NCBI GenBank assembly: GCA_913061155.1
Contig: CAJXSI010000002.1
Location: 1,167-65,166 of the forward strand
DNA from: an uncultured Alphaproteobacteria bacterium
GTDB taxonomy: Bacteria > Pseudomonadota > Alphaproteobacteria > UBA7879 > VGCX01
Direction of reading: 5' to 3'
Length of the DNA: 64,000 nucleotides
The notes under the pieces were generated by a model that saw only the letters and a list, made by a program, of their open reading frames with translations, was not told where the DNA came from and did no database searches. Position 1 is the first letter of the stretch. Each line of letters opens with the position of its first letter. The position numbers and the translations under genes were made by a program. Shown here in pieces: positions 36,771-63,797 of the stretch.

Positions 36771-36820
36771 TAGCCTTAACAACAAGTGGCTATGGACACT
36801 TTTAACAAAGGTTACTAAGG

Positions 36821-37936
36821 ATGCAACAGATCCAGCCATGCTGGCTTAGAACACTTAAACTTCAGAACTTTAGAAATTTTTCTTCTTTAAACATAACTGT
36901 TCCGAAAGATCCGATTATTATCGCGGGGCCAAATGGCATTGGGAAAACCAATATATTGGAAGCGATTTCTTTGTTTTCCCCAGGAAAAGGTCTGCGCCAA
37001 TCAAAGCTTGGGATTATTAAAAAATCAGATGTCCAAGATCAGGGCTGGTTTATTAATGCAGACTTTGAACACCAACACCAAGATCTGAATATTGGCACTG
37101 GGCTGGATTTATCGACAGCTTCTGAACGGCGTATCGTTAAGGTCAATGGGGAAAAATCTTCCCAAACAGCATTGAACGATTGGATAAAAATTTTATGGCA
37201 AACACCCCAGATGGATCGTTTGTTTATTGATGGAATGACCATCCGCCGTAAGTTTTTTGATAAGTTATTGGTGAATTTTTCACCAGAGCATTCCAAGCAT
37301 CTTTATCGATATGATTATGCTTTGCGGGAACGATCCAAATTGCTTCGCGAGGGGATTATGGATCAAAAATGGCTGGCCGTTTTGGAACAAAAAATGGCCC
37401 AAGAATCAATTGCCATTACGGCGAACCGACTGGATTATTTGTCGCAGCTCCAGGGATTTTTGGAACAAGAAATTGAAGGCTTCCCTAAAATCGCGGTTTC
37501 TTTAGAGGGGGATGTTGAAACCCTTATTCATGAAAATTCCGCAACAGTGGCTGAAGAACGTCTCCAAGAAAGGCTTTGCCAGAATCGAAGTCGGGATTCT
37601 GTTATGGGTGGGTCAAAAATTGGGGCACATCAGTCAGAATTTCTTGTTTTGAACCTTGATTGTAACCAGCAAGCTGAGGTATGCTCTACGGGTGAGCAAA
37701 AAGCACTGCTATTGACTTTGATCATGGCAAATGCCCGGTTGCTTGCAACAGTTCATGAGGTTGCCCCCATCCTTTTGTTGGATGAGGTTGTTGCCCATTT
37801 AGATGAAAACAGACGACAAGTCTTATTCAACGAAATTTTAAAGCTTGGAATCCAGTCTTGGTTGACAGGGACAGATGTCCAAGTGTTTGAGCCATTAAGA
37901 AAACATGGTCACTTTATAAACTTAAACGAAAGATAG
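36821..37936 (+). CDS. recF: DNA replication and repair protein RecF
   Basis: Walker A …GPNGIGKTNILEAISL…, signature …LSTGEQKALLL…. Confidence 0.85.
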   Translation: MQQIQPCWLRTLKLQNFRNFSSLNITVPKDPIIIAGPNGIGKTNILEAISLFSPGKGLRQSKLGIIKKSDVQDQGWFINADFEHQHQDLNIGTGLDLSTASERRIVKVNGEKSSQTALNDWIKILWQTPQMDRLFIDGMTIRRKFFDKLLVNFSPEHSKHLYRYDYALRERSKLLREGIMDQKWLAVLEQKMAQESIAITANRLDYLSQLQGFLEQEIEGFPKIAVSLEGDVETLIHENSATVAEERLQERLCQNRSRDSVMGGSKIGAHQSEFLVLNLDCNQQAEVCSTGEQKALLLTLIMANARLLATVHEVAPILLLDEVVAHLDENRRQVLFNEILKLGIQSWLTGTDVQVFEPLRKHGHFINLNER

Positions 37937-37939
37937 TAG

Positions 37940-42137
<4,198 letters not shown>

Positions 42138-47421: not shown

Positions 47422-47970
47422 GTGTCAAAAGCGAAGTTACAGCTTGTTGCAAATTCATATGCGACTGCTTTGTTTGAAGTAGCAACCAAAAATAAATCAA
47501 CTGAAGTTTTATATAAAGCTTTTAAAAAGAATGTGTCTTTTTTTGACTTAGCACAAGTTAGAAAAATACTGGATAACCCCCTTCTTTCTAAAGATGACCA
47601 CGAACACTTTGCCAAGGCTTTTGATCTTAAAGGCGTTGCCAATGATTTATTGATAGGTTTGATTAAGACATTATTTTCTTATTCTCGGATGGCAATTTTT
47701 CCGTATGTCCTTCAAAGTTATTGCGACCTTTATATGAAGGAAACGGGGGAATGTGAAGTTACTGTAATAAGTGCAGAAGATTTAAGTAGCGGACAGGAAC
47801 AAAACCTTAAGAAAAAATTGGAAGCCTATCTACAGAAAAAAGTTTCTTTCAATAAGAAAATTCAAGAAAACCTAAAGGCAGGATTTGTCCTGGAATTCAC
47901 AGGTAAACGACTTGATCTATCCTTAAAGGGTCAACTAAAACAATTTTTAAACCACGGGATGTTAAAATGA
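47422..47970 (+). CDS. atpH: F0F1 ATP synthase subunit delta (OSCP), GTG start
   Basis: …[13 protein letters not shown]… OSCP N-terminus. Directly precedes atpA with a 4-nt overlap. Confidence 0.75.
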
Positions 47971-49508
47971 AAATAGACATTAAACCAACAGAAGTAATTT
48001 CAGTCTTAAAAGAACATATTGAAGGCTTTGATAAAAAGACGAAGCTGGATGACACTGGAAAAGTGGTTTCTGTGGGGGATGGAATTGCCCATATTTATGG
48101 TCTGGATAAAGTTAAATCAGGGGAAATGATTAAGTTCCAAAGTGGCATTATGGGCATGGCCTTAAACTTGGATACAGATTCTGTTGGGGCTGTTATTTTT
48201 GGAAATACCCGGGGGGTAAAAGAAGGGGATACTGTTTCATTAACAGGAAAAGTTATTCAATGTCCTGTGGGAAAAGGATTGCTTGGTCGTGTTGTGGACG
48301 CTTTGGGAAACCCAATTGATGGAAAGGGTCCGTTAAAGGATGTGACCTATAAATCCGTGGAAACAGAGGCACCTGGAATTATTGCGCGCAAGTCCGTAAG
48401 CGAACCCATGTCAACAGGTATAAAAGCCATCGATGCATTAATTCCGGTTGGACGTGGACAGCGGGAATTAATTATTGGGGATCGTCAAACGGGTAAAACT
48501 GCCATTGCCATTGATACAATTCTTAATCAGAAATCAACGAATGATAAAGGCGGCGATAAAGACAAGCTTTTTTGTGTTTATGTTGCGATCGGTCAAAAAA
48601 GATCAACCGTGGCCCAAATTGTTAAAACATTAGAAGAAGCTGGTGCAATGGAATACTCTATCGTTGTGGCGGCAACAGCCTCGGATCCGGCTCCTCTACA
48701 ATTCTTAGCGCCTTATACAGGGTGCACCATGGGGGAATATTTCCGTGATAACGGGATGCATGCCTTGATAACTTATGACGACTTATCCAAACAAGCGGTT
48801 GCTTATCGTCAAATGTCATTGTTGCTGCGTCGTCCGCCAGGACGCGAGGCTTATCCTGGGGATGTTTTCTATTTACACTCTCGTTTGCTTGAGCGGGCTG
48901 CGAAACTAAGTGATGATCACGGGGGCGGTTCTTTAACAGCGTTGCCGATTGTTGAAACACAGGCAGGGGACGTTTCTGCCTATATTCCCACAAACGTTAT
49001 TTCCATTACGGATGGTCAGATTTTCTTAGAAACAGACTTGTTTTATAAAGGCATTCGACCTGCTGTCAATGTGGGATTGTCCGTTAGTCGTGTTGGGTCT
49101 GCTGCCCAAATTAAAGCCATGAAGCAAGTGGCTGGAACCATTAAATTAGAATTGGCACAATACCGTGAAATGGCTGCCTTTGCGCAGTTTGGATCTGATT
49201 TGGATGAGTCAACACAAAACCTATTATCCCGCGGGGAACGGTTAACAGAACTTTTGAAACAACCGCAATATTCTCCTTTAAAAAGCGAAGAACAGGTTGT
49301 TGTTATTTATGCGGGTGTTAACGGATATTTGGATGACCTTGACGTGGGTGAAATCCAAGATTTCGAAACGGCACTCCTGCATGACTTAAATAAGAATCAT
49401 TCTGATTTAATGAAAGCAATTGCAAAAGAAAAACAACTGAATGAAGACATAGGAAACAAGGTAAAGACCTTTATTGAAAAGTTTAAGAAACAATATAAAA
49501 CTGTGTAA
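47967..49508 (+). CDS. atpA: F0F1 ATP synthase subunit alpha
   Basis: Walker A …[15 protein letters not shown]…. Highly conserved throughout. Confidence 0.95.
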
Positions 49509-49510
49509 CG

Positions 49511-51843
<2,333 letters not shown>

Positions 51844-51847
51844 TTTT

Positions 51848-52258
51848 ATGACGTTAATCTTTCAAATTGTATCCCCTTTTACGACCATAGAACACGACAG
51901 TGTTTCCATGGTTACGCTGCCTGGGGCAGATGGGATGCTGGGTGTTATGCCCAAACATGCAACGTGCCTTGTTGATTTGCAGCCGGGGATTATTAAAATA
52001 TATAAAAATAAAGATATTTTAAAACGTTATATCACCCACGAAGGGGTGGCCAATATTACACCGGAACGATGCACAGTAAGCGTGGAAGAATTCCATGAAA
52101 TAGATGACCTTGATCCAAAAGTTTTGGAAGAAGATATTAAACGATATCACAATGACTTGGCTGGTGTGGATATCGAAGTCGAAGAACGAATTCTGGAAGC
52201 AAAAATTAAGGCAACAGAAAAAATGTTAGAGGTTGCACGTCAGCATTTTAAGAAATAA
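51848..52258 (+). CDS. atpC: F0F1 ATP synthase subunit epsilon
   Basis: Position after atpD. Beta-sandwich N-terminus plus helical C-terminus. ~136 aa. Confidence 0.8.
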   Translation: MTLIFQIVSPFTTIEHDSVSMVTLPGADGMLGVMPKHATCLVDLQPGIIKIYKNKDILKRYITHEGVANITPERCTVSVEEFHEIDDLDPKVLEEDIKRYHNDLAGVDIEVEERILEAKIKATEKMLEVARQHFKK

Positions 52259-52266
52259 AGTAAATT

Positions 52267-52626
52267 ATGGCTTATGATAAAAACAACATTTTTGCAAAAA
52301 TCATTCAGCGAGAAATTCCCTGTGATAAGGTTTATGAAGATGATTTTTCTTTGGCCTTTCGCGACATATCCCCTAAGGCAAAAATTCATGTATTGGTGAT
52401 TCCAAAAGGCATGTATACAGGCTTTGATGACTTTACTGATAACGCATCGGATAAGGAAAAAGTCGGATTTTCCACGGCTGTTTCCAAAGTTATTAAACAG
52501 TTAAATTTATCAGAAAAGGGGTGCCGCCTTATTTCAAATTTAGGCAACGATGGTGGGCAAGAAGTTCCCCATTATCACGTGCATATTTTAGGGGGCGAAA
52601 CACTGGGGGCGTTGATTGGAAAATGA
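52267..52626 (+). CDS. HIT-family (histidine triad) nucleotide hydrolase
   Basis: …VPHYHVHILGG… HxHxHxx motif. Confidence 0.8.
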   Translation: MAYDKNNIFAKIIQREIPCDKVYEDDFSLAFRDISPKAKIHVLVIPKGMYTGFDDFTDNASDKEKVGFSTAVSKVIKQLNLSEKGCRLISNLGNDGGQEVPHYHVHILGGETLGALIGK

Positions 52627-54203
52627 TGAAAAAAATATTTTTTATAGTAATATTCTTAGGCTTATCCTTTAAGTCATTTGCTGTTATCGAAACAGAAGAT
52701 ATCGGCGGTATCAACCCAGAAACAGTTGGGGTCAATACGTATGATACAAAATTTATTCCAACAGATCTTTGGGAAGGGCTTTCGCATACACAAGTTGTCC
52801 GGCTTATCAAAAATTTACCGACGAAATTTAAAAATAATTTTTGGACCCGCCTGCAAATATCTTTGCTTTTGTCCCCTATGAAAGTGCCTGAAAATAAAAC
52901 TGGTGAAAATAATATTTTCAATTTAAGATTTGAAAAACTGCTTGATATGGAAGCAGTTGACCAGGCTTATAATCTTGGGAAAAATCATGCGGATCAATTG
53001 GATGAAGATAGTTGGGCATGGTGTCAATTTATACATTTTCTGATTCATAATAATTATGATAAGGCCTTCAGTATTGCACAGGAATTTGCCTTAAAAGACA
53101 AGGATAACAAATGGCAACATGCGGTTATCACAATGCAATTATTGATGGGGAAAGATGACCAGGCTAACTTAAGTTTATCTTTGCTTGAAAAAGAAAATAA
53201 AAAACAAGATCATCATTTTATCAAAACCATCAAACAAATTCAGGCAGGGGAAAAAATCAAAGGCACTGAACATTCACCCCACCGTCCATTGATCATTAAA
53301 TTGATGGTATCTAAAAATATTATTCCTGAAGATATGAGTATTGAATCCATGTCAGATGACATCATTTTAATGATGATATTGGATCCTGGGTTTGAAAAAT
53401 TTTCAGATCGAATGAAGTTATCAATTCTTGAATATTATACAGAACAAAGTACACATAAGCCGCAATTATTAAAAGATCATTATCTGAAATTGGCAACAGA
53501 AGATCTGGTGAAAGAGGCTACTCAGAAAATTTCCAATAAAGAATATGATAAAGAAAATGATCCGTTAATTCGGGCGGCTTTGTATAAAATATTTGTTGAT
53601 TCAGAAGGCGAAGAAATAAAGAAAATGGCTTTTTCTGCTTTTTACAAAAATGCTTATGCAAATAAAATTTTAACGGTGGCGGTTGCTTGTTTTGGTAACG
53701 ATTATAATTATCCTGCTGCCGCTTATGACAAAGATTATTCCTTTGCGTTTGTTCTGCATAATTTAATGTTGCAAAACAAAAGCCAAATGAAGGCTTGGGT
53801 TGAAGGGTTGAATCAGGAAGAACTTTCTGAATTATCTTTGATTCTTCTTGCAAGTTGTAACTTGGATTATTTTTCAGGGGAAACACAAGAACATTTGATG
53901 GAAAACGTAAAAAAAATATATTTAGAACCTGCAAAAAAATTCTTATTTAAAGAGAAACTAAAGTTTTTACATAACGTTTCGTCCCCCTTTAAATTATCAG
54001 ATAGTCGTTTGATTGATGTCATTTCAGGGCAGTATGGTTTTGGGGCAGGTTTATCCATTCTTCTTAGTTCATCACAGTCCATATTATCAACAGATGTCTG
54101 GCAGGCTGCTGTTCAACTTCGTGTTTTAGAAGCCCTTAAACTGAAAAACCAGGCAACACAACTGCGACAGCTTTATGCTTATTCTTCTGCCAAGGATGAA
54201 TAA
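52623..54203 (+). CDS. Large secreted hypothetical protein (~526 aa), likely all-alpha
   Basis: The ATG overlaps the HIT stop (ATGA). Signal peptide MMKKIFFIVIFLGLSFKSFA. No recognisable motifs. Confidence 0.5.
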   Translation: MMKKIFFIVIFLGLSFKSFAVIETEDIGGINPETVGVNTYDTKFIPTDLWEGLSHTQVVRLIKNLPTKFKNNFWTRLQISLLLSPMKVPENKTGENNIFNLRFEKLLDMEAVDQAYNLGKNHADQLDEDSWAWCQFIHFLIHNNYDKAFSIAQEFALKDKDNKWQHAVITMQLLMGKDDQANLSLSLLEKENKKQDHHFIKTIKQIQAGEKIKGTEHSPHRPLIIKLMVSKNIIPEDMSIESMSDDIILMMILDPGFEKFSDRMKLSILEYYTEQSTHKPQLLKDHYLKLATEDLVKEATQKISNKEYDKENDPLIRAALYKIFVDSEGEEIKKMAFSAFYKNAYANKILTVAVACFGNDYNYPAAAYDKDYSFAFVLHNLMLQNKSQMKAWVEGLNQEELSELSLILLASCNLDYFSGETQEHLMENVKKIYLEPAKKFLFKEKLKFLHNVSSPFKLSDSRLIDVISGQYGFGAGLSILLSSSQSILSTDVWQAAVQLRVLEALKLKNQATQLRQLYAYSSAKDE

Positions 54204-54217
54204 CAGTGACAGCGCCC

Positions 54218-55114
54218 ATGAATGTTTTGGAACAATTTCTGGAAATGTTAATTGTGGAACGTGGGGTTGCAAAAAACACATTGGAATCTTACCGTCGCGA
54301 TTTATTATCGCTTTTTCAATTCTTTTCTGGGAAATCAATTAATCCCATTCAGGCCACATCAGAAAACTTAAAAATTTATTTATCTGGTTTACCTGATGGG
54401 GGATTGTCTGCCCGGTCGATTGCCCGGCATATTTCATCCATTAAACAATTTTATCGTTTTCTGATTTTGGAAAATACGATAACAATAGATCCAACAACAA
54501 TAATAGACAGCCCAAAACAAGCCAAGTCGCTGCCAAAAATTTTATCTGAAAAAGACATTGAATCTTTGCTGTTAACAGCAGCCGAAGATAACAGTCCGGA
54601 AGGACTTCGTTTAATGGCATTGCTTGAAACATTGTATGCGACAGGGCTGCGTGTGTCTGAATTGGTTATGTTGACCCATGGGGCTTTTTCTTATGAATCC
54701 GATACCATCATTGTCAAAGGGAAGGGGGCCAAAGAACGAATCGTCCCTTTGGGAAGTCATGCCCGAACTGCTCTTAAAAAGTATGTTGGGGTGCGGGGAT
54801 ATTTTGTACACCGCAAACAAAGCAAGTGGTTGTTTCCATCAACCAGTAAAGAAGGTCATTTAACCCGGCAGCGGTTTGGTCAATTGTTAAAACAGTTGGC
54901 AATGGATGCGGGGCTGGATCCATCAAAAATATCGCCACATGTTGTGCGTCATGCCTTTGCTACACATTTACTAAGTCACGGGGCTGACCTTATTTCTGTT
55001 CAGAAAATGCTGGGCCATTCCGATATCTCAACGACACAAATTTATACCCACGTTTTGCAAGATAAATTGCAAGACTTGGTTTTAAATCATCATCCATTGG
55101 GAAAGAAAAATTAA
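54218..55114 (+). CDS. xerD: Tyrosine recombinase XerD. An in-frame GTG at 54206 is also possible.
   Basis: …HVVRHAFATHLLSHGADLISVQKMLGHSDISTTQIYTHV…HHP… C-terminus is typical of XerD. Confidence 0.8.
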   Translation: MNVLEQFLEMLIVERGVAKNTLESYRRDLLSLFQFFSGKSINPIQATSENLKIYLSGLPDGGLSARSIARHISSIKQFYRFLILENTITIDPTTIIDSPKQAKSLPKILSEKDIESLLLTAAEDNSPEGLRLMALLETLYATGLRVSELVMLTHGAFSYESDTIIVKGKGAKERIVPLGSHARTALKKYVGVRGYFVHRKQSKWLFPSTSKEGHLTRQRFGQLLKQLAMDAGLDPSKISPHVVRHAFATHLLSHGADLISVQKMLGHSDISTTQIYTHVLQDKLQDLVLNHHPLGKKN

Positions 55115-55131
55115 GTTATTTTTGTCACATT

Positions 55132-56058
55132 TCATCGTAATGCGACTTCCAGTCTTTCAAGAATGGTGATGGTAAGGCTAGCATGAACAACATAATGAAA
55201 AAGGCGAACTTTCCAACCATTATACAGGCCGCTGATTCCGTATTTTCGGTAAAGATCCTGCATGGCTTTGAACAGGCGCGTACGTCCACTGGTTGTGTTT
55301 TTTTGTTGCTGGGTTTTAACGCAGTCAAAGGGCATAATAAACAAAGTATTTATAATTCCTACAAGAATACTGATGATAAATAAAATCCAAAAATCCAATG
55401 GCCCATCCGTTTCAAAATGTTTACGGGCGCTGCCTCTGAAAAAATCATCCGCCACTAAAAAAGTTATCCAAGATACCATTTGTTTTACATATACAGGGCG
55501 AAGTCCTGCCATAAGTTGAAGGCCTAAGCCCTTTCTGTTTTTTGTAAAAAAGTAAAGCAAGCCCCTTTTGCTTTTGTAATGTGTCATCAGCCAAACTTTG
55601 ATCCGTTCAAGGGGCGTGATGATAAAGCATTCAAAATTGGCAATGATAATGGCAGATACCAATTTATTCATTTCAGACCGCTTAAAAACTTCCAAAGATT
55701 CCAGCCCCAAAGGAATAAATAACATCATTGGCCACCGATAGATTTGTTTGATGACAACACGCAGGGTGTTGGGGATGTATCCCCGATAAAATCCCATCAG
55801 GCCATTACTGCGATAGATGTTTTTTGTAACAGCCAGGGCGCTATGGTTGTTGGGCAAGGCCTGCATATTTGTTTTAATACAATCCAAAGGATGTTCAAGA
55901 GGCAGGGCAAGCGCCCCGCGGACGGCGCCATAAAAACTGACCTTTGCGTATTGGTCCCACGTAAAACTTTTGGCAACGCAAGGTTTGGGGGGCAGGACAA
56001 TAAAGGTCAATAAAAATATAAAAATTCGATATTTCTGCATGGTGCCTAAACATATCAC
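55132..56058 (-). CDS. Mitochondrial carrier family (MCF/SLC25-like) transporter
   Basis: Three tandem ~100-aa repeats, each with an odd-helix Px[DE]xx[KR] signature (PLDCIK, PLERIK, PFDCVK). Each is followed by the G..G…YRG/GL.P motif (…GFYRGYIPNTLR…, …GLGLQLMAGLRPVYVKQ…, …GISGLYNGWKVRL…). Confidence 0.75.
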   Translation of the reverse strand: MICLGTMQKYRIFIFLLTFIVLPPKPCVAKSFTWDQYAKVSFYGAVRGALALPLEHPLDCIKTNMQALPNNHSALAVTKNIYRSNGLMGFYRGYIPNTLRVVIKQIYRWPMMLFIPLGLESLEVFKRSEMNKLVSAIIIANFECFIITPLERIKVWLMTHYKSKRGLLYFFTKNRKGLGLQLMAGLRPVYVKQMVSWITFLVADDFFRGSARKHFETDGPLDFWILFIISILVGIINTLFIMPFDCVKTQQQKNTTSGRTRLFKAMQDLYRKYGISGLYNGWKVRLFHYVVHASLTITILERLEVALR

Positions 56059-56078: not shown

Positions 56079-56489
56079 CTATTGCCTAAGGATGCCCATT
56101 AACGTTTCGTTAAGATTTTGAATTTTATCTTCTTTGAAGAATTCTGTGTGGTTTTTTGCGGCTATTTTATAGGCTTGGGCCAGCGTATCTTTTCCCAAAT
56201 CAGTTAAAACAGGGTATCTGGATTTATTGTTTTCTTTGCGGTGAATGCGTTCAATCATGCCTTTTGACTCAAGCTTTCGCAAAGATTGGGATGTTACGTT
56301 AACATCAGTGCGACAATACTTTGAAAGATCTTTCTGGCGTACATGGCATTTATTTTGGGCAAAGCGATCCAACCCGGCCATTAAAATAAATTGAACCTGG
56401 CTGATATTTAAAGGGGTTAAGCTGTTTTCAGTTTTCTTATTCCAGGCATTGGCCACTTGCCAAAGCAGATAACCTGTATTTTTTTCCAT
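56079..56489 (-). CDS. MarR-family transcriptional regulator
   Basis: 136-aa winged-HTH (…QKDLSKYCRTDVNVTSQSLRKLESKGMIERIHRKENNKSRYPVLTDLGKD…). Confidence 0.7.
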   Translation of the reverse strand: MEKNTGYLLWQVANAWNKKTENSLTPLNISQVQFILMAGLDRFAQNKCHVRQKDLSKYCRTDVNVTSQSLRKLESKGMIERIHRKENNKSRYPVLTDLGKDTLAQAYKIAAKNHTEFFKEDKIQNLNETLMGILRQ

Positions 56490-56928: not shown

Positions 56929-58233
56929 ATGAACACGTATATTTTTTGGAGTGCTATTGCTGGATTAGCTGTGGCCTTTATTGGATCTGGTTTTAAAGGT
57001 AAACAGACAGACCAAACAATCGAAGACTATTTTATTTGTCGATCATCCTTAAAATTGGGCTGGTTAACGTTAACGATATTGGCCACCCAATTGGGGGGCG
57101 GTGCTGTCATCGGGGCCGCTGAAACAGCCTACACAAGTGGTTGGGTGGGGTGTTTTTACTCCTTAGGGATTTGCTTAGGCCTCCTGATTATGGGAATTTT
57201 CGTCGCCCCAAAATTAAAAACGTATAACTTAATGACGATGGCCTCTGTTTTCGGCGAAGTATATCAATCACGAAGGTTGCGGACTTTTTCCGCTTGTTTA
57301 TCCGTCATTACATTATTCTTTATCTTGGTGGCCATTGGGGTGTCTTGCCGAAAATTATTTACCTATTTGGGATATGATTCCCCATGGATATTGGCTGGAT
57401 TCTGGTTTGTGATTTTGGGGTATACCGTTATGGGTGGCTTACGCGCAGTTGTTATAACGGATGCTATTCAGGTTATTTTTATCTTAATTGTTTTTTCGGG
57501 TATTGCCTTATACGTTACCCAAATGCCGGATCTAAAGATGACTATTGTTGCTTATTCCCCACCTGAAAATACAGATATTCGTTGGACGGATTGGGTATTA
57601 ATGCCGCTTTGTTTTATGATTATCAGTCAGGACATGGGGCAACGGTGTTTTGCCGCAATGGACAAGACCGCCATTCAAAAAGGAATGATTATTGGGGCTT
57701 TGGTCTTGATGGTTGCTTCAACCGTTCCGGTTGTTATTGGTATTTTGGGGGCCCAGACGGGAATTGTTTCACATTCGGGCAGTATTTTAATGACGGTGGT
57801 GGAAAATATTTTTTCACCCACAATGGTTAGTTTAATTGCCATTTCGATTATCATTGCCATTGTTTCCACAGCAGATTCTTTGTTGTGTGCCATCAGTTCC
57901 AATATTTCAATTGATATTATGCGCAACAGTTCTGTCTTAAAAAGTAAAGGTATTACCTTTTTGATTGGGGTGGCGGCGATGATGTTTTCTTATTCAAAAT
58001 CAAACGTTATTCCAGTGATGATTATTGGCTATGAAATTTCAGTTTTTGCTTTGTTTATTCCTTTTTTAATGGGGTTGTATAAAAAGCCTGTAACTGAAAA
58101 GCAGGCCTTAATTTCAATTGGCGTAGGGGGGCTGTTTTTTATTCTTAAAAAAATGGCCCCTTTCCCTGGATTGGAATTTTTGATGTTAATAGGGTGTTCT
58201 TTGCCCTACATGTTTAAAAAGACAATTAGTTAG
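56929..58233 (+). CDS. Sodium:solute symporter (SSS family) transporter
   Basis: SD AGGAAAAG. N-terminal …LKLGWLTLTILATQLGGGAVIGAAETAYTSGW… is typical of SSS. ~13 TM. Confidence 0.8.
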   Translation: MNTYIFWSAIAGLAVAFIGSGFKGKQTDQTIEDYFICRSSLKLGWLTLTILATQLGGGAVIGAAETAYTSGWVGCFYSLGICLGLLIMGIFVAPKLKTYNLMTMASVFGEVYQSRRLRTFSACLSVITLFFILVAIGVSCRKLFTYLGYDSPWILAGFWFVILGYTVMGGLRAVVITDAIQVIFILIVFSGIALYVTQMPDLKMTIVAYSPPENTDIRWTDWVLMPLCFMIISQDMGQRCFAAMDKTAIQKGMIIGALVLMVASTVPVVIGILGAQTGIVSHSGSILMTVVENIFSPTMVSLIAISIIIAIVSTADSLLCAISSNISIDIMRNSSVLKSKGITFLIGVAAMMFSYSKSNVIPVMIIGYEISVFALFIPFLMGLYKKPVTEKQALISIGVGGLFFILKKMAPFPGLEFLMLIGCSLPYMFKKTIS

Positions 58234-58268: not shown

Positions 58269-58383
58269 GCCGCCTAAAGAAGTTGTCAGCCTATTATCTG
58301 ACAGGGGATTCTTTGTATAGGCAGGAACCCCGGTTATATAAACGTGTAAGATGATTGTAACCTAATCTGTATGCTTCAAGTTT

Positions 58384-59415
58384 TTAGCCAATAGTTTGGA
58401 TATTAGGCATTATTTCTGAATTAAAAGGAACAAGTCCCTGGTTAATAAGGATTCCTTTATTGCTAGAAATTTCCGAAGATTGATAGAAATCAATAAATTT
58501 TTGAAGGCCATCCACCATGCGCAGTCTGTCTTTTCGGGCATAGATATATAAAGGCCTTGATAAAAGATAGTCTTGTGAGGCAATACTATCAAAAGAGGGG
58601 GCCACCCCCCCAATTGTGATGGCCTGAATTTTGTCTTTAAATTTTTTAATAAAACTGTATCCCATAATGCCCAACATTCCAGGGTTATCGTTAATCTTTT
58701 GAACGAATAAATCATGGGAATCGCCTAAATCATATTTTGTGGCAATAATAACGTGATCGCTGTCTTGCCTATAGGTGTTACAGATTTTTTCATATCGATG
58801 TGGGTTTGATTCTTTGATCTTTTGAATCCATTTATTGGTGGCACACCCTTTATCCATGGCAAGTTCTAGGAAAGATCCATAAGTTCCGTTTTTGACTTGG
58901 GGTAATAATAATTGGATTTTTATATTGGGAAGTTTGGGGTTAATATCCCGCCATTTTTTATAAGGATTCTTGATCAGTTTTCCATATTTATTTGGAACTT
59001 GTTTTGCCATCGCAAGAAATAATTCTTCAAGTGTAATGTTGAAGTTTTTGGTTCCTTTTTTGACGCTTAAGATAATACCATCATAGCCAAAAGGAACCTC
59101 TAAAATAGGACCCACCCCATTTTTTTGACATAAGGTGATTTCCGATTCTTTTATTTTTCTGGATGCCCCAACTATGTCAGGTGAAAAGTTATGCTTGGCT
59201 GGGCCGCAAAAAACAGCCATTCCCTGACCTGTGCCAGTCCCTTCGACAAAGGGTTCTATTTTATTAAAATTCTTTGAAAAATTCTTGGCAACTTCAACAG
59301 AAAATGGATAGACAGTTGTGGATCCAACAGATCGAATTTGCAACCTTTTTGCGGCTGCATTCCCCGCCAATAGGCAGAATAAAATTAATAATATTTTATA
59401 ATTTGTATTTACCAT
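58384..59415 (-). CDS. PstS-family (PBP-like_2) periplasmic phosphate/anion-binding protein
   Basis: Signal peptide and the …VGSTTVYPFS… plus …EGTGTGQG… motifs typical of PstS-like binding proteins. No pstCAB nearby. Confidence 0.7.
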   Translation of the reverse strand: MVNTNYKILLILFCLLAGNAAAKRLQIRSVGSTTVYPFSVEVAKNFSKNFNKIEPFVEGTGTGQGMAVFCGPAKHNFSPDIVGASRKIKESEITLCQKNGVGPILEVPFGYDGIILSVKKGTKNFNITLEELFLAMAKQVPNKYGKLIKNPYKKWRDINPKLPNIKIQLLLPQVKNGTYGSFLELAMDKGCATNKWIQKIKESNPHRYEKICNTYRQDSDHVIIATKYDLGDSHDLFVQKINDNPGMLGIMGYSFIKKFKDKIQAITIGGVAPSFDSIASQDYLLSRPLYIYARKDRLRMVDGLQKFIDFYQSSEISSNKGILINQGLVPFNSEIMPNIQTIG

Positions 59416-60454
59416 TTATCTTATTTCCTTCGTAATAAAGCCCAGAGGCAATGGCAAAAGATTTATAAATTTCTGGAATTCCTAAATCATCATACATTGA
59501 ATATTTTGTGTTTAAGCTTATTAAAAAATGTTCCGTTGTTAAGACTTTTGTTTTAACGGCTTTTTCTTGAATAATTTCCAAGACAAGTTGGGCCGTATTT
59601 TTTCCTTCAGATAAAGAAGATGTTGATACAGACAGGGGGACGCCATCTTTTGAATTTGTTTCATATAAACCAATGACGGGGATGGCCGAATTTTTAACTG
59701 TCCAAGAAATAACATCTTTAGAAGAAACAATCGTATTATCTGTCATTGATGTTTTCAGGTTCCTGTAATTTGACAAAAAGATAAAATCAACCTCAGCCAG
59801 GTGGTTTAGCTTTTTGACAGATTCCTTCCATTCTTCAAAGGTATCAACCATGATTGAATCTGTTAAAACATGGGGATCCCATGAATGGGTTAAGATAAAC
59901 TTATCATCCACTTTCATTAAGGTAGTTTGATCCCCAATGGAGGCAAGCTTCAGGCTTTTTTTGTTTTTCTTTAGGCTGGATAAAACTTTCTTAACATCAT
60001 TTAACGGAAATTGTTCTTGAACGCCTGAAACATTTTTTGCATTTGTATAGTCATAAGAAGAAGGATCCTTGATTTTTGCATAGACAAGGCTGATATGGGG
60101 GTTGCCAATATAGTTTTTCCCCACATATTCTTGTGCTTCCTCGCCAACGGCGACGATGACTTCTGGTTTTAGATCCTCAATAATATTTTCTGCAGATATT
60201 CCTGATGAAACTTTATAACGTTCAGATTGTTTATTTAACGTGTTCATAAAATAATTTAAGATAGAAGGATTCTTATCATGTTGAAGCTTTTTTAAAAACC
60301 CTTTGTTAAAGGCACGGACAGAAGACAGCGTCGTATCATAACTATGAATAATAATAATTCTGGGCCGGTTTAAGTTATAAGATAAAATAAACCAAAAAAT
60401 AACCAGAATCAGTATTCCCTTAACAATAAAAAATCTTTTTTTAATCATCATCAT
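59396..60454 (-). CDS. Periplasmic substrate-binding-like protein (type-I PBP fold / 'ABC_sub_bind'-like). The start is the ATG overlapping the upstream TGA.
   Basis: N-terminal anchor MMMIKKRFFIVKGILILVIFWFIL, then …RIIIIHSYDTTLSS… alternating beta/alpha pattern. Family assignment is tentative. Confidence 0.45.
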   Translation of the reverse strand: MMMIKKRFFIVKGILILVIFWFILSYNLNRPRIIIIHSYDTTLSSVRAFNKGFLKKLQHDKNPSILNYFMNTLNKQSERYKVSSGISAENIIEDLKPEVIVAVGEEAQEYVGKNYIGNPHISLVYAKIKDPSSYDYTNAKNVSGVQEQFPLNDVKKVLSSLKKNKKSLKLASIGDQTTLMKVDDKFILTHSWDPHVLTDSIMVDTFEEWKESVKKLNHLAEVDFIFLSNYRNLKTSMTDNTIVSSKDVISWTVKNSAIPVIGLYETNSKDGVPLSVSTSSLSEGKNTAQLVLEIIQEKAVKTKVLTTEHFLISLNTKYSMYDDLGIPEIYKSFAIASGLYYEGNKINGKYKL

Positions 60455-62328
60455 AGGCTTAATAATCCTATTGATTTCCAATAGGGCAAACTTAAATAGA
60501 TAGCTGCCAACTTTAATAAGTTAAGAATCGCATTTAAGGTTAAAACAGAACGTTCTTTAAAGGGATGATTTTTCATTAAAACAAATCGAAAGTTTGAATA
60601 TTCGGGTGATTGAAAAGGAAAGTAAAAAGATTCGCCAAAAATTAAAATAATGAAGGCCATAATCCAGGGGGATATTCCAATTGTTTGGGCAATCGGAATA
60701 AGGATGGACCCAAAAATAAAAATTGTGGGGCCTTTGGGCATAACAAAACGGGTTAAGGTAATTAAGACGAATAAAATCGCAATCGTTTTATTGAAATTGC
60801 CTAAGATATAATTTCCAACAAATTCAAGTTTATCTGAAATCATGTGCAATAGGCCAATATGATTGGCTGTGGATAGCAATCCCGTTAACCCTGCCAGATA
60901 AACCAACTCTGTCCAGTTGATGTCAGTATTAAACCCATCGCGTCGGATGAAACTGAAAGTTAAAAATGTTGACATGACAAGCAAGGCAATGGTTTCAGGA
61001 TTAATTCGATGATACCGAGATGTCGCCATGCCAATAAAACAGATCAGGGTTCCCACCGCGGCAGCCCATTCATAAGAAGTTGGGGGACCCAAGGTTTCAA
61101 GCTGCCGGGAAATCAGGGTTTTTGACAATTTTATTTTTGTGAACCCCCGCATTAGAATGGCCATGGCAATAGAATGCAGAACAATTAAAATAAGGGCTGT
61201 GACGAAGGATGCCTTAAGCCAACCCATCCATTGGAATTGCGCCTGATATTGTCCCCAGAATAATCCAAGTAATACATAATTGCGTACAGAACTACTAAGA
61301 AAAGAAGGGCCTAACAACGTAACGCTTTGCAACGCATTGGCAACAACAACAGTCCACATCTTTTCTTTGTAATGAAGGCGTAAGGTGGCATACGCATCTT
61401 TTACAAAAGAGGCCGATAAGTTAACCCTGTTTGTCATATCAGGAACAGTAGGCGTCAGAATCGACCCCAGGGTAAACATGGACATGTTAACCAAAATATT
61501 ATTCTTAGGCACCTTATTTAACAAATTTAATAAGATCCTATAAAGTAACCCAGAAGACATAATAATAGCGGCAATTCCAAAGATACCAAGGGCCATGATA
61601 AAGGTTCTGGACGAAAATCCAGATAAAATAACTTTGGGATCTGTTAACCCAATCCCCAAGCTGATCAACAAGGCGAAGATAGATGGGATGAATTCAGGAA
61701 CCAACCGGAATGCCCATGTTATAAGGGTTCCAGATAAAATACATAAAAATAACTTTTGTTTTATTTGGAAATCGTAATAATTCCCCAAAACATAAAATAA
61801 AATAATGGGCGTTAAAATGGCCAAAATCCATCCGAATAAGTAAATGTTTTCATTAAAAGGAAGGTCGACTTTTTTCTTTCGGATACCTTTTTCAGGTTTC
61901 TGCTGAAATTTTCTTGTGAATTCACGCGAAAAATTCAAAATTAATTCATTCAACATTTTCCGATCATTTTTGACAAGCTGAATTAAATCATATTTATGAA
62001 TTCTTGCAACTGTTACATCCTGGGATGTTGCCGTGGCTGTTCCAATATAATCTTTTTGATCCAGGGCACATTCTTCACCAAAAAGCATGCCTTCTTTTAA
62101 AGGAATAATTTGGTCTTTTATTTTAAGATTTATGGCGCCTTCAACCAAGAAATATAAAAAGTCAGCTTCTTTCGATGGGCGTGTGATCAGTTGATTTCTT
62201 TTATAAGTATGTAGGGAAAATAGGGCGATTAAGCGTGCTTTTGATCCTTGGGGAAGGACAGAGAAAGGACCTAATTCATTTTGGACTATTCTTTTTATTT
62301 TCTTTAAGCATCTGCTTTCAATCGTCAT
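60451..62328 (-). CDS. Cyclic-nucleotide-binding domain fused to a multi-TM anion permease (ArsB/NhaD/SLC13-like superfamily)
   Basis: N-terminal cNMP-binding fold with …GMLFGEECAL… and …ATATSQDVTVARI…. About 12 further TM segments. Confidence 0.65.
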   Translation of the reverse strand: MTIESRCLKKIKRIVQNELGPFSVLPQGSKARLIALFSLHTYKRNQLITRPSKEADFLYFLVEGAINLKIKDQIIPLKEGMLFGEECALDQKDYIGTATATSQDVTVARIHKYDLIQLVKNDRKMLNELILNFSREFTRKFQQKPEKGIRKKKVDLPFNENIYLFGWILAILTPIILFYVLGNYYDFQIKQKLFLCILSGTLITWAFRLVPEFIPSIFALLISLGIGLTDPKVILSGFSSRTFIMALGIFGIAAIIMSSGLLYRILLNLLNKVPKNNILVNMSMFTLGSILTPTVPDMTNRVNLSASFVKDAYATLRLHYKEKMWTVVVANALQSVTLLGPSFLSSSVRNYVLLGLFWGQYQAQFQWMGWLKASFVTALILIVLHSIAMAILMRGFTKIKLSKTLISRQLETLGPPTSYEWAAAVGTLICFIGMATSRYHRINPETIALLVMSTFLTFSFIRRDGFNTDINWTELVYLAGLTGLLSTANHIGLLHMISDKLEFVGNYILGNFNKTIAILFVLITLTRFVMPKGPTIFIFGSILIPIAQTIGISPWIMAFIILIFGESFYFPFQSPEYSNFRFVLMKNHPFKERSVLTLNAILNLLKLAAIYLSLPYWKSIGLLSL

Positions 62329-62346: not shown

Positions 62347-62538
62347 CTATTTTAGCTTTTCTCTTTTATACGAAGTTTTTTTAGAATGGTCATTAATGGA
62401 AATTTCAAATTCCCCTTTTTCACCTGTAAAAAGACCTGGGCCATTAACCTGGTCTGTGGGTAAAACTTCTTGACCCTCGTAGTTGCTGCAACTAACAAGG
62501 GTCAAGATTGCGAAAAGGGCACTTAAAAGCTTTTTCAT
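62347..62538 (-). CDS. Small lipoprotein (63 aa)
   Basis: Lipobox …LTLVSC. Lies between the porin and the permease operon. Confidence 0.4.
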   Translation of the reverse strand: MKKLLSALFAILTLVSCSNYEGQEVLPTDQVNGPGLFTGEKGEFEISINDHSKKTSYKREKLK

Positions 62539-62549
62539 TTATGGGCGCT

Positions 62550-63797
62550 CTAGAATTTTAGACGTGCACCAAGCATGACTACGTGAATATCTTTATAATC
62601 TTTTGTGCTTGATTTTTGAACATCAAATTGATGACCACGCCATGTTAAGAACATTTCTGTTGCGGCACTATCAAATTTTTGCAATGCTGTCGCACCAAAT
62701 AATTTTGCCGTTCCTTTTTTGTCCGCATCTGTTGATAGGTTACGTGTTTGACCATAGTCAACAGAGAAGATTGTTTTACCACAATCCAACATATCAACAT
62801 GTTGTCCAAGTTTTACAAAATAGTTTTCAGCATTTGATCCACCAGGACGGTTTCTGTAATCACGTGTTCCCCCTGCAAAACTGATGTTTGTACCAAAAGG
62901 TGCAAGAACGGACAAACTTCCGTTATATTGCTTGTATTGACCCCCATCGTTTCTGACGGCTGCGGCAGCTGCACGAACTGTGTAGCCACTGATCTTTGCG
63001 CCATAGAACAAGGCGGCATCATGTGTGCTGTTATTACCAGTTGTTGATCCTGAGGCACTGTGTCCTACGCGAAGTTGGACCCCTTGAAAGATTGGTGAGT
63101 CATAACGAATGCGTTGCTTACGACCATTCCCGTCGAATGGGTCGTATACTTCAATTAAGCGTGGGCTTGTTTTTGGATCAGTGGTTATTTCGCCTTTGTT
63201 CACGAAATAAGATGAATCTGTCAAGTAAGATGATGTTGCAAGATATGTTCCCGAAAGATCTTGTTCAGATGAATCGTCTGTTGCACTTGGTCCTTTACCC
63301 ATATATAAAGTACCCATTTTTTGACTCATCAACAAAAATTCTGCCCGCCTTGGATCAAGGTTATTTTTCTTAGCAGCGCCGGATCGAAGACTTACATCGG
63401 AAGAGTTATTAGGTCGGTAACCAAATTCAAAAATACTTTTTGCCGTTAAATCGTCACTGATGGGTGCTTCAGCAATAAAATGCGTACGTGTTGTACTGTT
63501 ATTGTTTGTTACGTGATAAACACCAGTTTTGGCCCCATCATCAGCCCAAGCTGTGGCAACGCTTACGTGTCCACCAATTGTTAGTTTAACTTTTTCATCA
63601 CGGGAATGAACAACTGTATTATCAGATTGTTTATGCATACGGCTGGACCCAGAAGATTTCCCTTCCAAGGCATCCAAACGTGCATTTAATTCATTAATTT
63701 GTTGGCGCAAAGTCATTACTTCGCTGGAATCTGCATGGCTTATTCCTGCAGAAAGAATCGCTGCTACAGCTGCAAAACCTATTAGAACTTTTTTCAT
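62550..63797 (-). CDS. Outer-membrane porin-like beta-barrel protein with an N-terminal coiled-coil segment
   Basis: Signal peptide …ILSAGISHA|DSS, coiled coil (…LRQQINELNARLDALEG…), alternating amphipathic strands, C-terminal …VMLGARLKF ending in aromatic Phe. Confidence 0.55.
   Translation of the reverse strand: MKKVLIGFAAVAAILSAGISHADSSEVMTLRQQINELNARLDALEGKSSGSSRMHKQSDNTVVHSRDEKVKLTIGGHVSVATAWADDGAKTGVYHVTNNNSTTRTHFIAEAPISDDLTAKSIFEFGYRPNNSSDVSLRSGAAKKNNLDPRRAEFLLMSQKMGTLYMGKGPSATDDSSEQDLSGTYLATSSYLTDSSYFVNKGEITTDPKTSPRLIEVYDPFDGNGRKQRIRYDSPIFQGVQLRVGHSASGSTTGNNSTHDAALFYGAKISGYTVRAAAAAVRNDGGQYKQYNGSLSVLAPFGTNISFAGGTRDYRNRPGGSNAENYFVKLGQHVDMLDCGKTIFSVDYGQTRNLSTDADKKGTAKLFGATALQKFDSAATEMFLTWRGHQFDVQKSSTKDYKDIHVVMLGARLKF

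What the first reader, a model, noticed from the sequence alone, without database searches (positions are those of the whole stretch)
58384..62328. Operon of a cNMP-gated anion permease fusion with two orphan periplasmic binding proteins and no ABC components
All three genes are on the minus strand and translationally coupled. The permease stop TGA overlaps the next ATG (cTATGAtg at ~60451-60454), and the two SBP genes overlap by 20 nt. Gene 1 fuses a cytoplasmic cyclic-nucleotide-binding domain (FGEECAL motif) to a ~12-TM ArsB/SLC13-like permease. Genes 2 and 3 are a type-I-PBP-like protein and a PstS-like phosphate/anion-binding protein with the GSTTVYP motif. No ABC ATPase or permease genes are present. 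This points to a substrate-binding-protein-assisted secondary transporter, possibly phosphate-type, gated by a second messenger. The fusion plus this SBP pairing is not an architecture I recognise.
Basis: partly seen in the sequence, partly recalled or inferred. Interest (0 to 1): 0.6.

Follow-up and report, generated by a model that had tools for sequence, protein, structure and literature searches.

The report
DASS permease with tethered binding-protein partner
A membrane anion-transporter gene carrying a nucleotide-sensor-like domain is followed, here and in dozens of unrelated bacteria, by a gene for a membrane-tethered periplasmic binding protein, which points to an undescribed binding-protein-coupled transporter; the phosphate-binding protein beside it is a local add-on.

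Summary
The three genes, their overlaps and their domains are real. Gene 1 is a CNB-like domain fused to a DASS-fold permease. Gene 2 is a single-pass membrane-anchored type-I periplasmic binding protein, a distant PF04392 relative. Gene 3 is a PstS-type protein with all seven phosphate-binding residues of SAR11 PstS.

No ABC transporter genes lie in the window or in the 10 kb beyond its end. Two more genes, a porin-like protein and a small lipoprotein, sit tightly upstream, so the cluster has five genes.

Genes 1 and 2 form a widespread, unnamed module. In 51 of 52 informative metagenomic loci found through gene 2, the CNB-DASS gene lies directly upstream, usually with overlapping stop and start codons. 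PstS is present only in this lineage. Other lineages independently added other orphan binding proteins (PstS-family, TAXI), outer-membrane channel proteins, or class III nucleotide cyclases.

The CNB domain is non-canonical: the cyclic-phosphate arginine is replaced by a conserved tyrosine.

The best reading is a binding-protein-coupled, allosterically regulated DASS-fold anion transporter, a candidate new class beside TRAP, TTT and TAXI-GltS. Substrate, ligand and mechanism are untested.

The parts
62550..63797 (-). Porin-like outer-membrane protein (415 aa), first gene of the cluster
   Evidence: ORF. It has a signal peptide, no transmembrane helix after it, at least 9 amphipathic alternating segments and a C-terminal ...ARLKF. 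No Pfam or PDB sequence match. Conserved at 70% identity in the same position in L001/L004. The beta-barrel assignment is an inference.
62347..62538 (-). Small lipoprotein (63 aa, lipobox LVSC)
   Evidence: Read from the sequence. Weak LPAM_1 match. A homologous 64-aa gene sits at the same place in L001. It lies 11 nt after the porin stop and 18 nt before the permease start.
60451..62328 (-). CNB-like domain fused to a DASS-fold permease (625 aa)
   Evidence: Pfam cNMP_binding + Na_sulph_symp + CitMHS. AlphaFold model pLDDT 76. Foldseek target-normalised TM-score (TMt) 0.83 to AtDiT2.1 and 0.82 to NaCT and VcINDY.
61906..62328 (-). N-terminal cytoplasmic CNB-like domain (residues 1-141)
   Evidence: Pfam match at residues 40-122. 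Beta-roll plus helices in the model. Profile matches to PKG, PKA and CRP CNB domains.
62029..62082 (-). Non-canonical phosphate-binding cassette FGEECALDQKDYIGTATA (residues 83-100); Tyr94 replaces the canonical Arg
   Evidence: Alignment with E. coli CRP and 57 family members: Gly-Glu is kept, and the Arg position is Tyr in 43 of 57. Tyr94 is invariant in alignment A2.
60463..61851 (-). DASS-fold transport domain (residues 160-622) with hairpin motif LTPTVPDMTNR (residues 291-301, nt 61426-61458)
   Evidence: The family profile aligns to chloroplast DiT1/DiT2.1 (E 1e-16 to 6e-18), and the motif LTPviPSanGR falls on DiT PamPSttaR. T292, P293, P296 and R301 are invariant.
59396..60454 (-). Gene 2: single-pass membrane-anchored type-I periplasmic binding protein (352 aa), the conserved partner of the permease
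   Evidence: ATGA overlap with the permease stop. AlphaFold model pLDDT 87: helix 2-28 followed by a two-lobe PBP. Foldseek top hits are the PF04392 binding proteins 3LKV, 6HNI and 3LFT. The family has 293 representatives at E<=1e-30. It is adjacent to CNB-DASS in 73 of 80 loci.
58384..59415 (-). Gene 3: secreted PstS-type phosphate-binding protein (343 aa)
   Evidence: PBP_like_2 and TIGR02136. E=4e-55 to SAR11 CpPstS, PDB 9JWY. All 7 phosphate-contacting residues are kept (S32, T33, T34, T62, S85, G177, T178; one is S->T), as is Pro172. 20-nt overlap with gene 2.
58283..58304 (.). Hairpin between the convergent gene 3 and the SSF transporter gene; a possible bidirectional terminator
   Evidence: Consensus scan reports it on both strands. 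Weak evidence only.

Best explanation
The core is a two-subunit inner-membrane machine.

- Subunit 1 is a DASS-fold, elevator-type anion permease. By analogy with other DASS carriers it is probably a dimer. Its N-terminal CNB-like domain sits in the cytoplasm.
- Subunit 2 is a type-I periplasmic binding protein held at the membrane by one transmembrane helix. It is made in step with the permease through overlapping stop and start codons.

I propose the following. The tethered binding protein captures a periplasmic anionic solute and presents it to the outward-facing permease, as the P subunit does in TRAP transporters. The CNB-like domain sets the permease's activity according to a cytoplasmic ligand. 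That ligand may be a cyclic nucleotide made by the cyclases that accompany the module in some lineages.

In this bacterium the module has acquired a porin-like outer-membrane protein, a lipoprotein and a genuine phosphate-binding PstS. This suggests an envelope-spanning, ATP-independent uptake route in which phosphate, or a phosphorylated or dicarboxylic anion, is the cargo or a co-signal.

Shown by computation: gene order and overlaps, folds, conserved linkage, residue conservation.
Inferred: complex formation, hand-over of substrate, regulation, substrate identity.
For: Linkage of genes 1 and 2:
- 73 of 80 metagenomic loci retrieved through gene-2 relatives carry CNB-DASS immediately upstream on the same strand. 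Five of the other seven have too little upstream sequence to tell, one has the order reversed and one lacks it.
- Among the 52 loci with at least 1.95 kb upstream, 51 have it and one has the reversed order. In 50 of the 51 the alignment includes the CNB region.
- The same pair occurs in 9 alphaproteobacterial MAG loci and in cultured Chromobacterium alticapitis.
- A start codon overlaps the permease stop (-4 or -1) in 45 of 64 loci, whose G+C spans 28-67%.
- No other gene family is shared by more than 11 loci.

Intact parts:
- DASS fold, TMt 0.82-0.83.
- Invariant hairpin residues T-P-x-x-P-x-x-x-x-R that align with the DiT motif.
- Gene 2 has a confident PBP fold. Its family-conserved residues fall at strand ends that face the cleft (this placement is an inference).

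Repeated accretion of orphan binding proteins without ABC or TRAP permeases:
- PstS here and in L001.
- Two PstS-family proteins plus an anchored TAXI-like protein in L017, L021 and L073.
- A canonical TAXI protein plus a secretin-type lipoprotein in L024, L026, L035 and L083.

Cyclases lie next to the pair. Yeast Pho90, a DASS-fold phosphate carrier with an N-terminal regulatory domain, is a structural match at TMt 0.75.

Precedent: TAXI-GltS was proposed as a new SBP-dependent elevator transporter, and further classes are explicitly anticipated (PMC12344293).
Against: - There is no experimental datum for any member. Databases name them only 'SLC13 family permease' and 'ABC transporter substrate-binding protein'.
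- Structural relatives of gene 2 include co-sensors (LuxP, TorT, XylFII). More distant sequence relatives sit beside histidine kinases or are fused to cyclases. That fits sensing as well as delivery.
- The clade at 52% identity to this permease has no gene 2 beside it. In one such MAG the gene-2 homologue is coupled to a P-type ATPase on another contig.
- If gene 2 is the substrate donor, the extra binding proteins need a separate explanation.
- The CNB cassette lacks the Arg that binds the cyclic phosphate.
- This clade has Asp, where most members have Ser, in the hairpin motif.
- The PstS link rests on two related genomes only.
Confidence: 0.42

Rival explanations
1. Regulated transporter or transceptor. 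Gene 2, and PstS here, are periplasmic sensors, not substrate donors. Ligand-bound gene 2 allosterically switches the DASS permease on or off, in the way LuxP acts on LuxQ or TorT on TorS, and the CNB-like domain adds a cytoplasmic input. The permease takes its substrate directly from the periplasm.
For: Foldseek neighbours include LuxP, TorT and XylFII co-sensors. Distant relatives lie next to dCache/PAS and CHASE5 histidine kinases. A gene-2-like domain is the periplasmic part of cyclases encoded right next to the module in L070 and L091. Canonical DASS carriers need no binding protein (established knowledge: VcINDY, DiT). PstS is known to signal to a chemoreceptor in P. aeruginosa (cited in PMC10443332).
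Against: The adjacency and translational coupling are as tight as in obligate transporter subunits. None of the top 150 family members carries an output domain. Recurrent recruitment of classical transport binding proteins (PstS-family, TAXI) and of outer-membrane channels fits cargo flow better than signalling.
Confidence: 0.28
2. The PstS-type gene is functionally unrelated to the permease. It is the binding protein of a PstCAB ABC importer encoded elsewhere in a rearranged, host-associated genome, and it merely shares a transcript with the module.
For: It is 45%-type similar to a true Pst binding protein, with all phosphate ligands kept. It is absent from all 80 metagenomic loci and from the other MAG loci. 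The module works without it almost everywhere. Gene order in this lineage is fluid.
Against: The 20-nt overlap with gene 2 is conserved in the 81%-identity relative. No pstCAB lies in about 74 kb around it. PstS-family proteins were recruited independently, and at a different position, in the Chromobacterium-type operons. DASS-fold phosphate carriers exist (Pho90).
Confidence: 0.4
3. The module is mainly a signalling device. The DASS-like domain has lost transport and serves as a membrane scaffold or sensor. It relays periplasmic binding-protein occupancy to the cytoplasmic CNB-like domain, which then acts on other proteins.
For: The PBC is non-canonical. The module associates with cyclases. 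It has many periplasmic binding partners.
Against: The transport-domain hairpin residues are invariant over very divergent members. The CNB domain is an input domain in every characterised protein (established knowledge). No output domain is present.
Confidence: 0.08
4. Genes 1 and 2 are neighbours by chance, or only by shared ancestry, and have no functional relation.
For: The 52%-identity clade separates them.
Against: 51 of 52 informative loci keep the order across a G+C range of 28-67%, with overlapping stop and start codons in 45 of 64, while all other flanking genes differ.
Confidence: 0.02

Closest known systems
TRAP transporters (DctPQM / SiaPQM)
   Same: A secondary, elevator-type permease with the same basic fold as DASS, working with a periplasmic binding protein. 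TRAP QM structures are weaker Foldseek matches.
   Different: There is no DctQ or DctM (DctM match 17.2 bits, below the 23.8 cutoff). The binding protein is a type-I PF04392-like fold, not DctP or TAXI, and it is tethered by a transmembrane helix. The permease carries a CNB-like domain and is closest to dimeric DASS exchangers.
TAXI-GltS system of Bordetella pertussis (PMC12344293)
   Same: A binding protein translationally coupled to a non-TRAP elevator-type secondary carrier. The binding protein is membrane-tethered. The proposal rests on genome context.
   Different: The carrier family differs (ESS/GltS versus DASS). The binding-protein family differs. Here there is also a cytoplasmic regulatory domain and variable extra binding proteins.
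DASS family carriers (VcINDY, LaINDY, plant DiT1/DiT2, SLC13)
   Same: Fold (TMt 0.82-0.83) and Pfam PF00939. The hairpin motif P-[SD]-x-x-x-R resembles that of DiT exchangers.
   Different: Score below the NCBIfam DASS cutoff (79.7 versus 198.6 bits). No SNT motifs. N-terminal CNB-like domain. An obligatory neighbouring binding-protein gene.
Yeast Pho87/Pho90/Pho91 (SPX-DASS phosphate carriers)
   Same: A DASS-fold carrier with an N-terminal cytoplasmic ligand-sensing regulatory domain. Structural match TMt 0.75. A phosphate connection through PstS in this locus.
   Different: SPX versus CNB-like domain. Eukaryotic, with no binding protein. Phosphate transport is not shown here.
PstSCAB phosphate ABC importer
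   Same: Gene 3 is a PstS of the SAR11 type with the full set of phosphate ligands.
   Different: pstC, pstA, pstB and phoU are absent from the cluster and from about 74 kb around it.
Binding-protein co-sensors (LuxP-LuxQ, TorT-TorS, XylFII-LytS)
   Same: A type-I PBP fold without an ABC partner, encoded next to its membrane partner.
   Different: The partner here is a carrier, not a kinase. Gene 2 is membrane-anchored.

Membership tests
DASS / SLC13 (Pfam PF00939, TC 2.A.47) | Sequence match to the family model | tested here: met
   PF00939 at 83.2 bits against a cutoff of 27. The stricter NCBIfam TIGR00785 scores 79.7 bits against a cutoff of 198.6, which is not reached.
DASS / SLC13 (Pfam PF00939, TC 2.A.47) | Scaffold plus transport-domain fold with two re-entrant hairpins | tested here: met
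   AlphaFold model pLDDT 76. Foldseek TMt 0.83 to AtDiT2.1, 0.82 to NaCT and 0.82 to VcINDY.
DASS / SLC13 (Pfam PF00939, TC 2.A.47) | Ser-Asn-Thr motifs at the hairpin tips (Na+/substrate site of the symporters) | tested here: not met
   Hairpin 1 reads TPTVPDMTNR. It aligns with the P-S-x-x-x-R motif of the DiT exchangers, not with SNT.
DASS / SLC13 (Pfam PF00939, TC 2.A.47) | Transport of di/tricarboxylate, sulfate or phosphate | not testable with these tools
   Needs a transport assay.
Cyclic-nucleotide-binding domain (PF00027) | Sequence and fold match (beta-roll) | tested here: met
   32.4 bits against a cutoff of 27.5. Profile matches to PKG, PKA and CRP. Beta-roll present in the model.
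Cyclic-nucleotide-binding domain (PF00027) | Phosphate-binding cassette with Gly-Glu ... Arg-[Ser/Thr/Ala] | tested here: not met
   Gly84 and Glu85 are present. The Arg position is Tyr94, and it is Tyr in 43 of 57 family members.
Cyclic-nucleotide-binding domain (PF00027) | Binds cAMP or cGMP | not testable with these tools
   Only indirect support: cyclase genes lie next to the module in 9 loci.
ABC_sub_bind (PF04392 / COG2984) ABC-transporter binding proteins | Sequence and fold match | tested here: met
   Marginal Pfam score, 26.3 bits against a cutoff of 25.9, over residues 245-326. The Foldseek top hits 3LKV, 6HNI and 3LFT are PF04392 proteins.
ABC_sub_bind (PF04392 / COG2984) ABC-transporter binding proteins | Encoded with its ABC permease and ATPase (COG4120/COG1101) | tested here: not met
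   None in the window, none in the 10 kb beyond it, and none in the gene families shared among about 90 related loci.
PstS phosphate-binding proteins | Family model match | tested here: met
   PF12849 at 126.8 bits. TIGR02136 at 128.7 bits, below its 206.6 cutoff. E=4e-55 to CpPstS, PDB 9JWY.
PstS phosphate-binding proteins | Phosphate-contacting residues | tested here: met
   7 of 7 CpPstS ligand residues are conserved, one as Ser->Thr. The Pro replacing Arg is also shared.
PstS phosphate-binding proteins | Part of a pstSCAB operon | tested here: not met
   No pstCAB within about 74 kb. The rest of the genome could not be searched.
TRAP transporter | DctQ and DctM membrane subunits plus a DctP or TAXI binding protein | tested here: not met
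   DctM match below cutoff (17.2 versus 23.8 bits). No DctQ, DctP or TAXI in the window cluster.
Proposed CNB-DASS + tethered-PBP module (unnamed) | CNB-like-DASS gene directly followed by a gene for a transmembrane-anchored PF04392-like protein carrying the KPRILVLHSY / NVTGILE motifs | tested here: met
   The window has the ATGA overlap, PRIIIIHSY and NVSGVQE. The module is defined.

The most novel reading that the evidence does not exclude
[quoted passage not shown] The tethered protein is a constant docking or donor subunit. Soluble orphan binding proteins (PstS here, TAXI or PstS-family elsewhere) are interchangeable cargo donors. Transport is licensed by a cyclic nucleotide made by periplasm-sensing cyclases. 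In this bacterium that would amount to an ATP-independent, PstS-fed high-affinity phosphate importer spanning both membranes.
Probability: 0.2. Interest if true: 0.88.

Novelty: new variant of a known kind. Interest (0 to 1): 0.68.

Why it matters
Until 2025, only TRAP and TTT secondary transporters were known to use binding proteins. TAXI-GltS was then proposed as a third class, and its authors asked for further classes to test whether the elevator mechanism is what allows coupling to a binding protein (PMC12344293).

This module would be such a class, built on the well-understood DASS fold. It offers more than 70 natural gene pairs for co-evolution and structure prediction, and one cultured host (Chromobacterium alticapitis) for genetics. 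It also joins a cytoplasmic sensor domain to a carrier, a poorly explored level of transporter control.

If PstS really feeds it, that would be a phosphate uptake route independent of ATP, which is relevant to host-associated and oligotrophic marine bacteria.

Tried and rejected
- A single-sequence PDB search found nothing for the permease membrane domain or for gene 2. Profiles or models were needed instead.
- The porin-like protein has no Pfam or PDB sequence match.
- Alignments A1 and A5 were too diverse for locus scans.
- The third homologue search, with a diverse profile, added almost nothing because of the word index.
- The plasmid collection holds no CNB-DASS relative, only distant gene-2 relatives next to kinases.
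- Literature searches for the fusion, the pairing, PF04392 and COG2984 gave no description of this module.
- I considered that the TAXI genes upstream in some loci belong to a TRAP permease. The 714-aa antisense ORF in L035 is a high-G+C artefact, and no TRAP membrane gene was seen.
- I considered canonical cNMP gating. The Arg->Tyr change argues against it. Relatives with the canonical Arg (P0020, P0022) lack gene 2.
- Whole-genome presence of pstCAB or cyclases could not be checked.

Full report
**Observation**

The minus strand of the window carries three ORFs at exactly the reported coordinates: 60451-62328 (625 aa), 59396-60481 (352 aa from the ATG at 60454) and 58384-59415 (343 aa). The permease stop TGA (60453-60451) overlaps the next ATG (60454-60452). 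Genes 2 and 3 share 20 nt, and an AAGGA lies ahead of the gene-3 ATG.

Pfam and NCBIfam give the following:
- Gene 1: cNMP_binding (residues 40-122) plus Na_sulph_symp/CitMHS (188-622).
- Gene 2: a marginal ABC_sub_bind match.
- Gene 3: a strong PBP_like_2/PstS-family match.

The cluster is larger than reported. A 63-aa lipoprotein gene (62347-62538) and a 415-aa porin-like gene (62550-63797) precede the permease, with gaps of 18 and 11 nt. All five genes are kept in the same order in the closest relative, whose permease is 81% identical (L001/L004).

The only ABC-signature ORF in the 64 kb is an LptB-like gene 12 kb away on the other strand. The 10 kb beyond the window end encode msrA, msrB, a methyltransferase, a phospholipid-synthesis enzyme and a SurA-like protein, but no ABC transporter.

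**What the parts are**

*Permease.* The permease model (pLDDT 76) matches DASS structures: AtDiT2.1 TMt 0.83, NaCT 0.82, VcINDY 0.82, and also the yeast phosphate carrier Pho90 at 0.75. A profile of the membrane domain aligns best with chloroplast DiT1/DiT2.1. It places the family motif LTPviPSanGR on the DiT motif PamPSttaR. T292, P293, P296 and R301 are invariant. This lineage has Asp where most members have Ser.

*CNB domain.* The N-terminal domain is a CNB beta-roll. Its phosphate-binding cassette reads FGEECALDQKDYIGTATA. When aligned with CRP, the arginine that holds the cyclic phosphate is Tyr94 here, and it is Tyr in 43 of 57 family members.

*Gene 2.* It models confidently (pLDDT 87) as one transmembrane helix (residues 2-28) followed by a two-lobe type-I binding protein. 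The nearest structures are the aromatic-amino-acid binders of PF04392 (3LKV, 6HNI, 3LFT), then LuxP, ribose-binding protein and TorT.

*Gene 3.* It has a signal peptide and matches the SAR11 PstS structure 9JWY at E=4e-55. All seven phosphate-contacting residues reported for that protein (PMC12421899) are present: S32, T33 (Ser in CpPstS), T34, T62, S85, G177 and T178. The proline that replaces the classical arginine is present too.

**Comparative evidence**

Word-indexed searches found only a few dozen relatives of the permease and of gene 2. An exhaustive profile search showed that the gene-2 family is large: 3602 cluster representatives at E<=1e-3 and 293 at E<=1e-30. Nearly all are about 340-360 aa, with a short N-terminal tail, one transmembrane segment, and the motifs KPRILVLHSY..DY.W and NVTGILE.

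A metagenome scan with a family alignment returned 80 loci.
- 73 of the 80 carry a CNB-DASS gene directly upstream on the same strand.
- Of the other seven, five have too little upstream sequence to tell, L052 has the reverse order, and only L081 lacks it.
- Among the 52 loci with at least 1.95 kb upstream, 51 have it. In 50 of those 51 the alignment reaches the CNB region.

The pair is also present in nine alphaproteobacterial MAG loci and in Chromobacterium alticapitis. A start codon overlaps the permease stop by 4 or 1 nt in 45 of 64 loci. The loci span 28-67% G+C. No other gene family recurs in more than 11 loci. Genes 1 and 2 therefore form a self-contained, widely distributed module that annotation calls only 'SLC13 family permease' and 'ABC transporter substrate-binding protein'.

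Relatives with a canonical Arg-containing cassette (P0020, P0022) are not followed by gene 2.

The clade at 52% identity has lost the adjacency. In one such MAG a gene-2 homologue survives on another contig, overlapping a P-type ATPase gene.

**Accessory genes**

The PstS-type gene is found only here and in the 81% relative. Other lineages added other partners:
- Two PstS-family proteins and a membrane-anchored TAXI-like protein upstream of the pair in Chromobacterium, L021 and L073. L042 and L085 show the same arrangement but are truncated.
- A canonical TAXI binding protein plus a TPR-secretin lipoprotein upstream in L024, L026, L035 and L083, with a pentapeptide-repeat protein as well in L024 and L083. 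No TRAP membrane genes are present.
- A class III nucleotide cyclase immediately downstream of gene 2 in 6 of 45 metagenomic loci and in three MAG loci.

In L070 and L091 the periplasmic part of that cyclase is itself a gene-2-like domain. More distant gene-2 relatives lie beside sensor kinases in Nitratidesulfovibrio vulgaris pDV and Vibrio aquimaris.

**Interpretation**

The tight, ancient and translationally coupled linkage implies a physical complex between a DASS-fold elevator carrier and a tethered binding protein.

Orphan transport-type binding proteins and outer-membrane channels were recruited repeatedly around it, and the carrier's hairpin residues are invariant. For these reasons the reading I favour (about 0.4) is substrate capture and hand-over, as in TRAP, TTT and the recently proposed TAXI-GltS class (PMC12344293), with the CNB-like domain as a cytoplasmic throttle.

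The cyclase neighbours give the 'second-messenger' idea independent support. The Arg->Tyr change means the ligand may not be cAMP or cGMP bound in the usual way.

The main rival (about 0.3) is that gene 2 is a periplasmic sensor that gates the carrier. This fits its LuxP/TorT-like relatives and the cyclase fusions. The two readings are not exclusive.

Whether PstS serves this carrier or a Pst ABC system elsewhere cannot be decided without the genome; I rate the two possibilities as roughly even. Phosphate as cargo is plausible, given PstS, a porin-like gene and DASS-fold phosphate carriers such as Pho90. But sequence similarity is highest to dicarboxylate exchangers.

**Novelty and verdict**

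I found no description of this pairing in the searchable literature. The window is one member of an uncharacterised but common module.

I class it as a new variant of a known kind (binding-protein-associated elevator-type secondary transporters), not as categorically new, because every claim about mechanism is inferred.

Its interpretation is partly supported: right about a non-ABC, binding-protein-linked, regulated anion carrier, and wrong in treating both binding proteins as equivalent soluble partners and in assuming a canonical cNMP site.

Noticed in passing
window 55132-56058 (-): A 308-aa protein with two strong Mito_carr repeats (E=2e-34), i.e. a eukaryote-type mitochondrial carrier encoded in a bacterium. 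It is conserved in the relatives L001 (15740-16648) and L101. With the reduced, rearranged gene order, this suggests a host-associated or intracellular lifestyle.
   Followed up: partly
L018 7701-8753 and 8740-11274 (MAG CAMBTM01, the same assembly as L006): In a genome whose CNB-DASS gene has no gene-2 neighbour, the gene-2 homologue (36% identity) overlaps by 14 nt the start of a P-type cation ATPase gene. This may be a second kind of membrane partner or a rearrangement.
   Followed up: no
L070 11053-13074; L091 9177-11162: Proteins with a gene-2-like periplasmic binding domain, a second transmembrane segment and a class III adenylate/guanylate cyclase domain, encoded directly after the CNB-DASS/gene-2 pair. 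They are about 24% identical to the neighbouring gene 2.
   Followed up: partly
L012, L013, L016 (MAG loci): Here the DASS gene is only 474-494 aa and lacks the CNB region. It still keeps gene 2 downstream, and a dCache-HAMP-cyclase gene two genes further on.
   Followed up: no
L074 5148-11023; L076 and L080: Tandem duplications. L074 has DASS-gene 2-DASS-gene 2. L076 and L080 have two CNB-DASS paralogues in a row before a single gene 2.
   Followed up: no
L024 267-7290; L083 4205-10987; L026; L035: A five-gene arrangement: TAXI binding protein, TPR-secretin lipoprotein, pentapeptide-repeat protein, CNB-DASS, gene 2 (the pentapeptide gene was seen only in L024 and L083). No TRAP membrane component is present. 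The outer-membrane secretin-type protein parallels the porin-like gene of the window.
   Followed up: partly
window 52267-55114 versus L002/L003: In the 52%-identity clade the CNB-DASS gene lies directly beside the HIT / ~530-aa protein / XerD-like block. In the window the same block is separated from the module by an SSF-family symporter (56929-58233), a MarR-like gene (56079-56489) and the Mito_carr gene, so this is a variable insertion zone.
   Followed up: no
window 61426-61458 (-): The hairpin motif of this clade and of the 52% clade has Asp (TPTVPDMTNR / TPIIPDTSSR) where most family members and DiT carriers have Ser. This may signal a different substrate or coupling ion.
   Followed up: no
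window 35652-40369 and 47422-52258 (+): A dnaN-recF-gyrB cluster and an ATP synthase operon, judged only from the N-terminal ORF sequences. The module lies in a core chromosomal region, not on an obvious mobile element.
   Followed up: no
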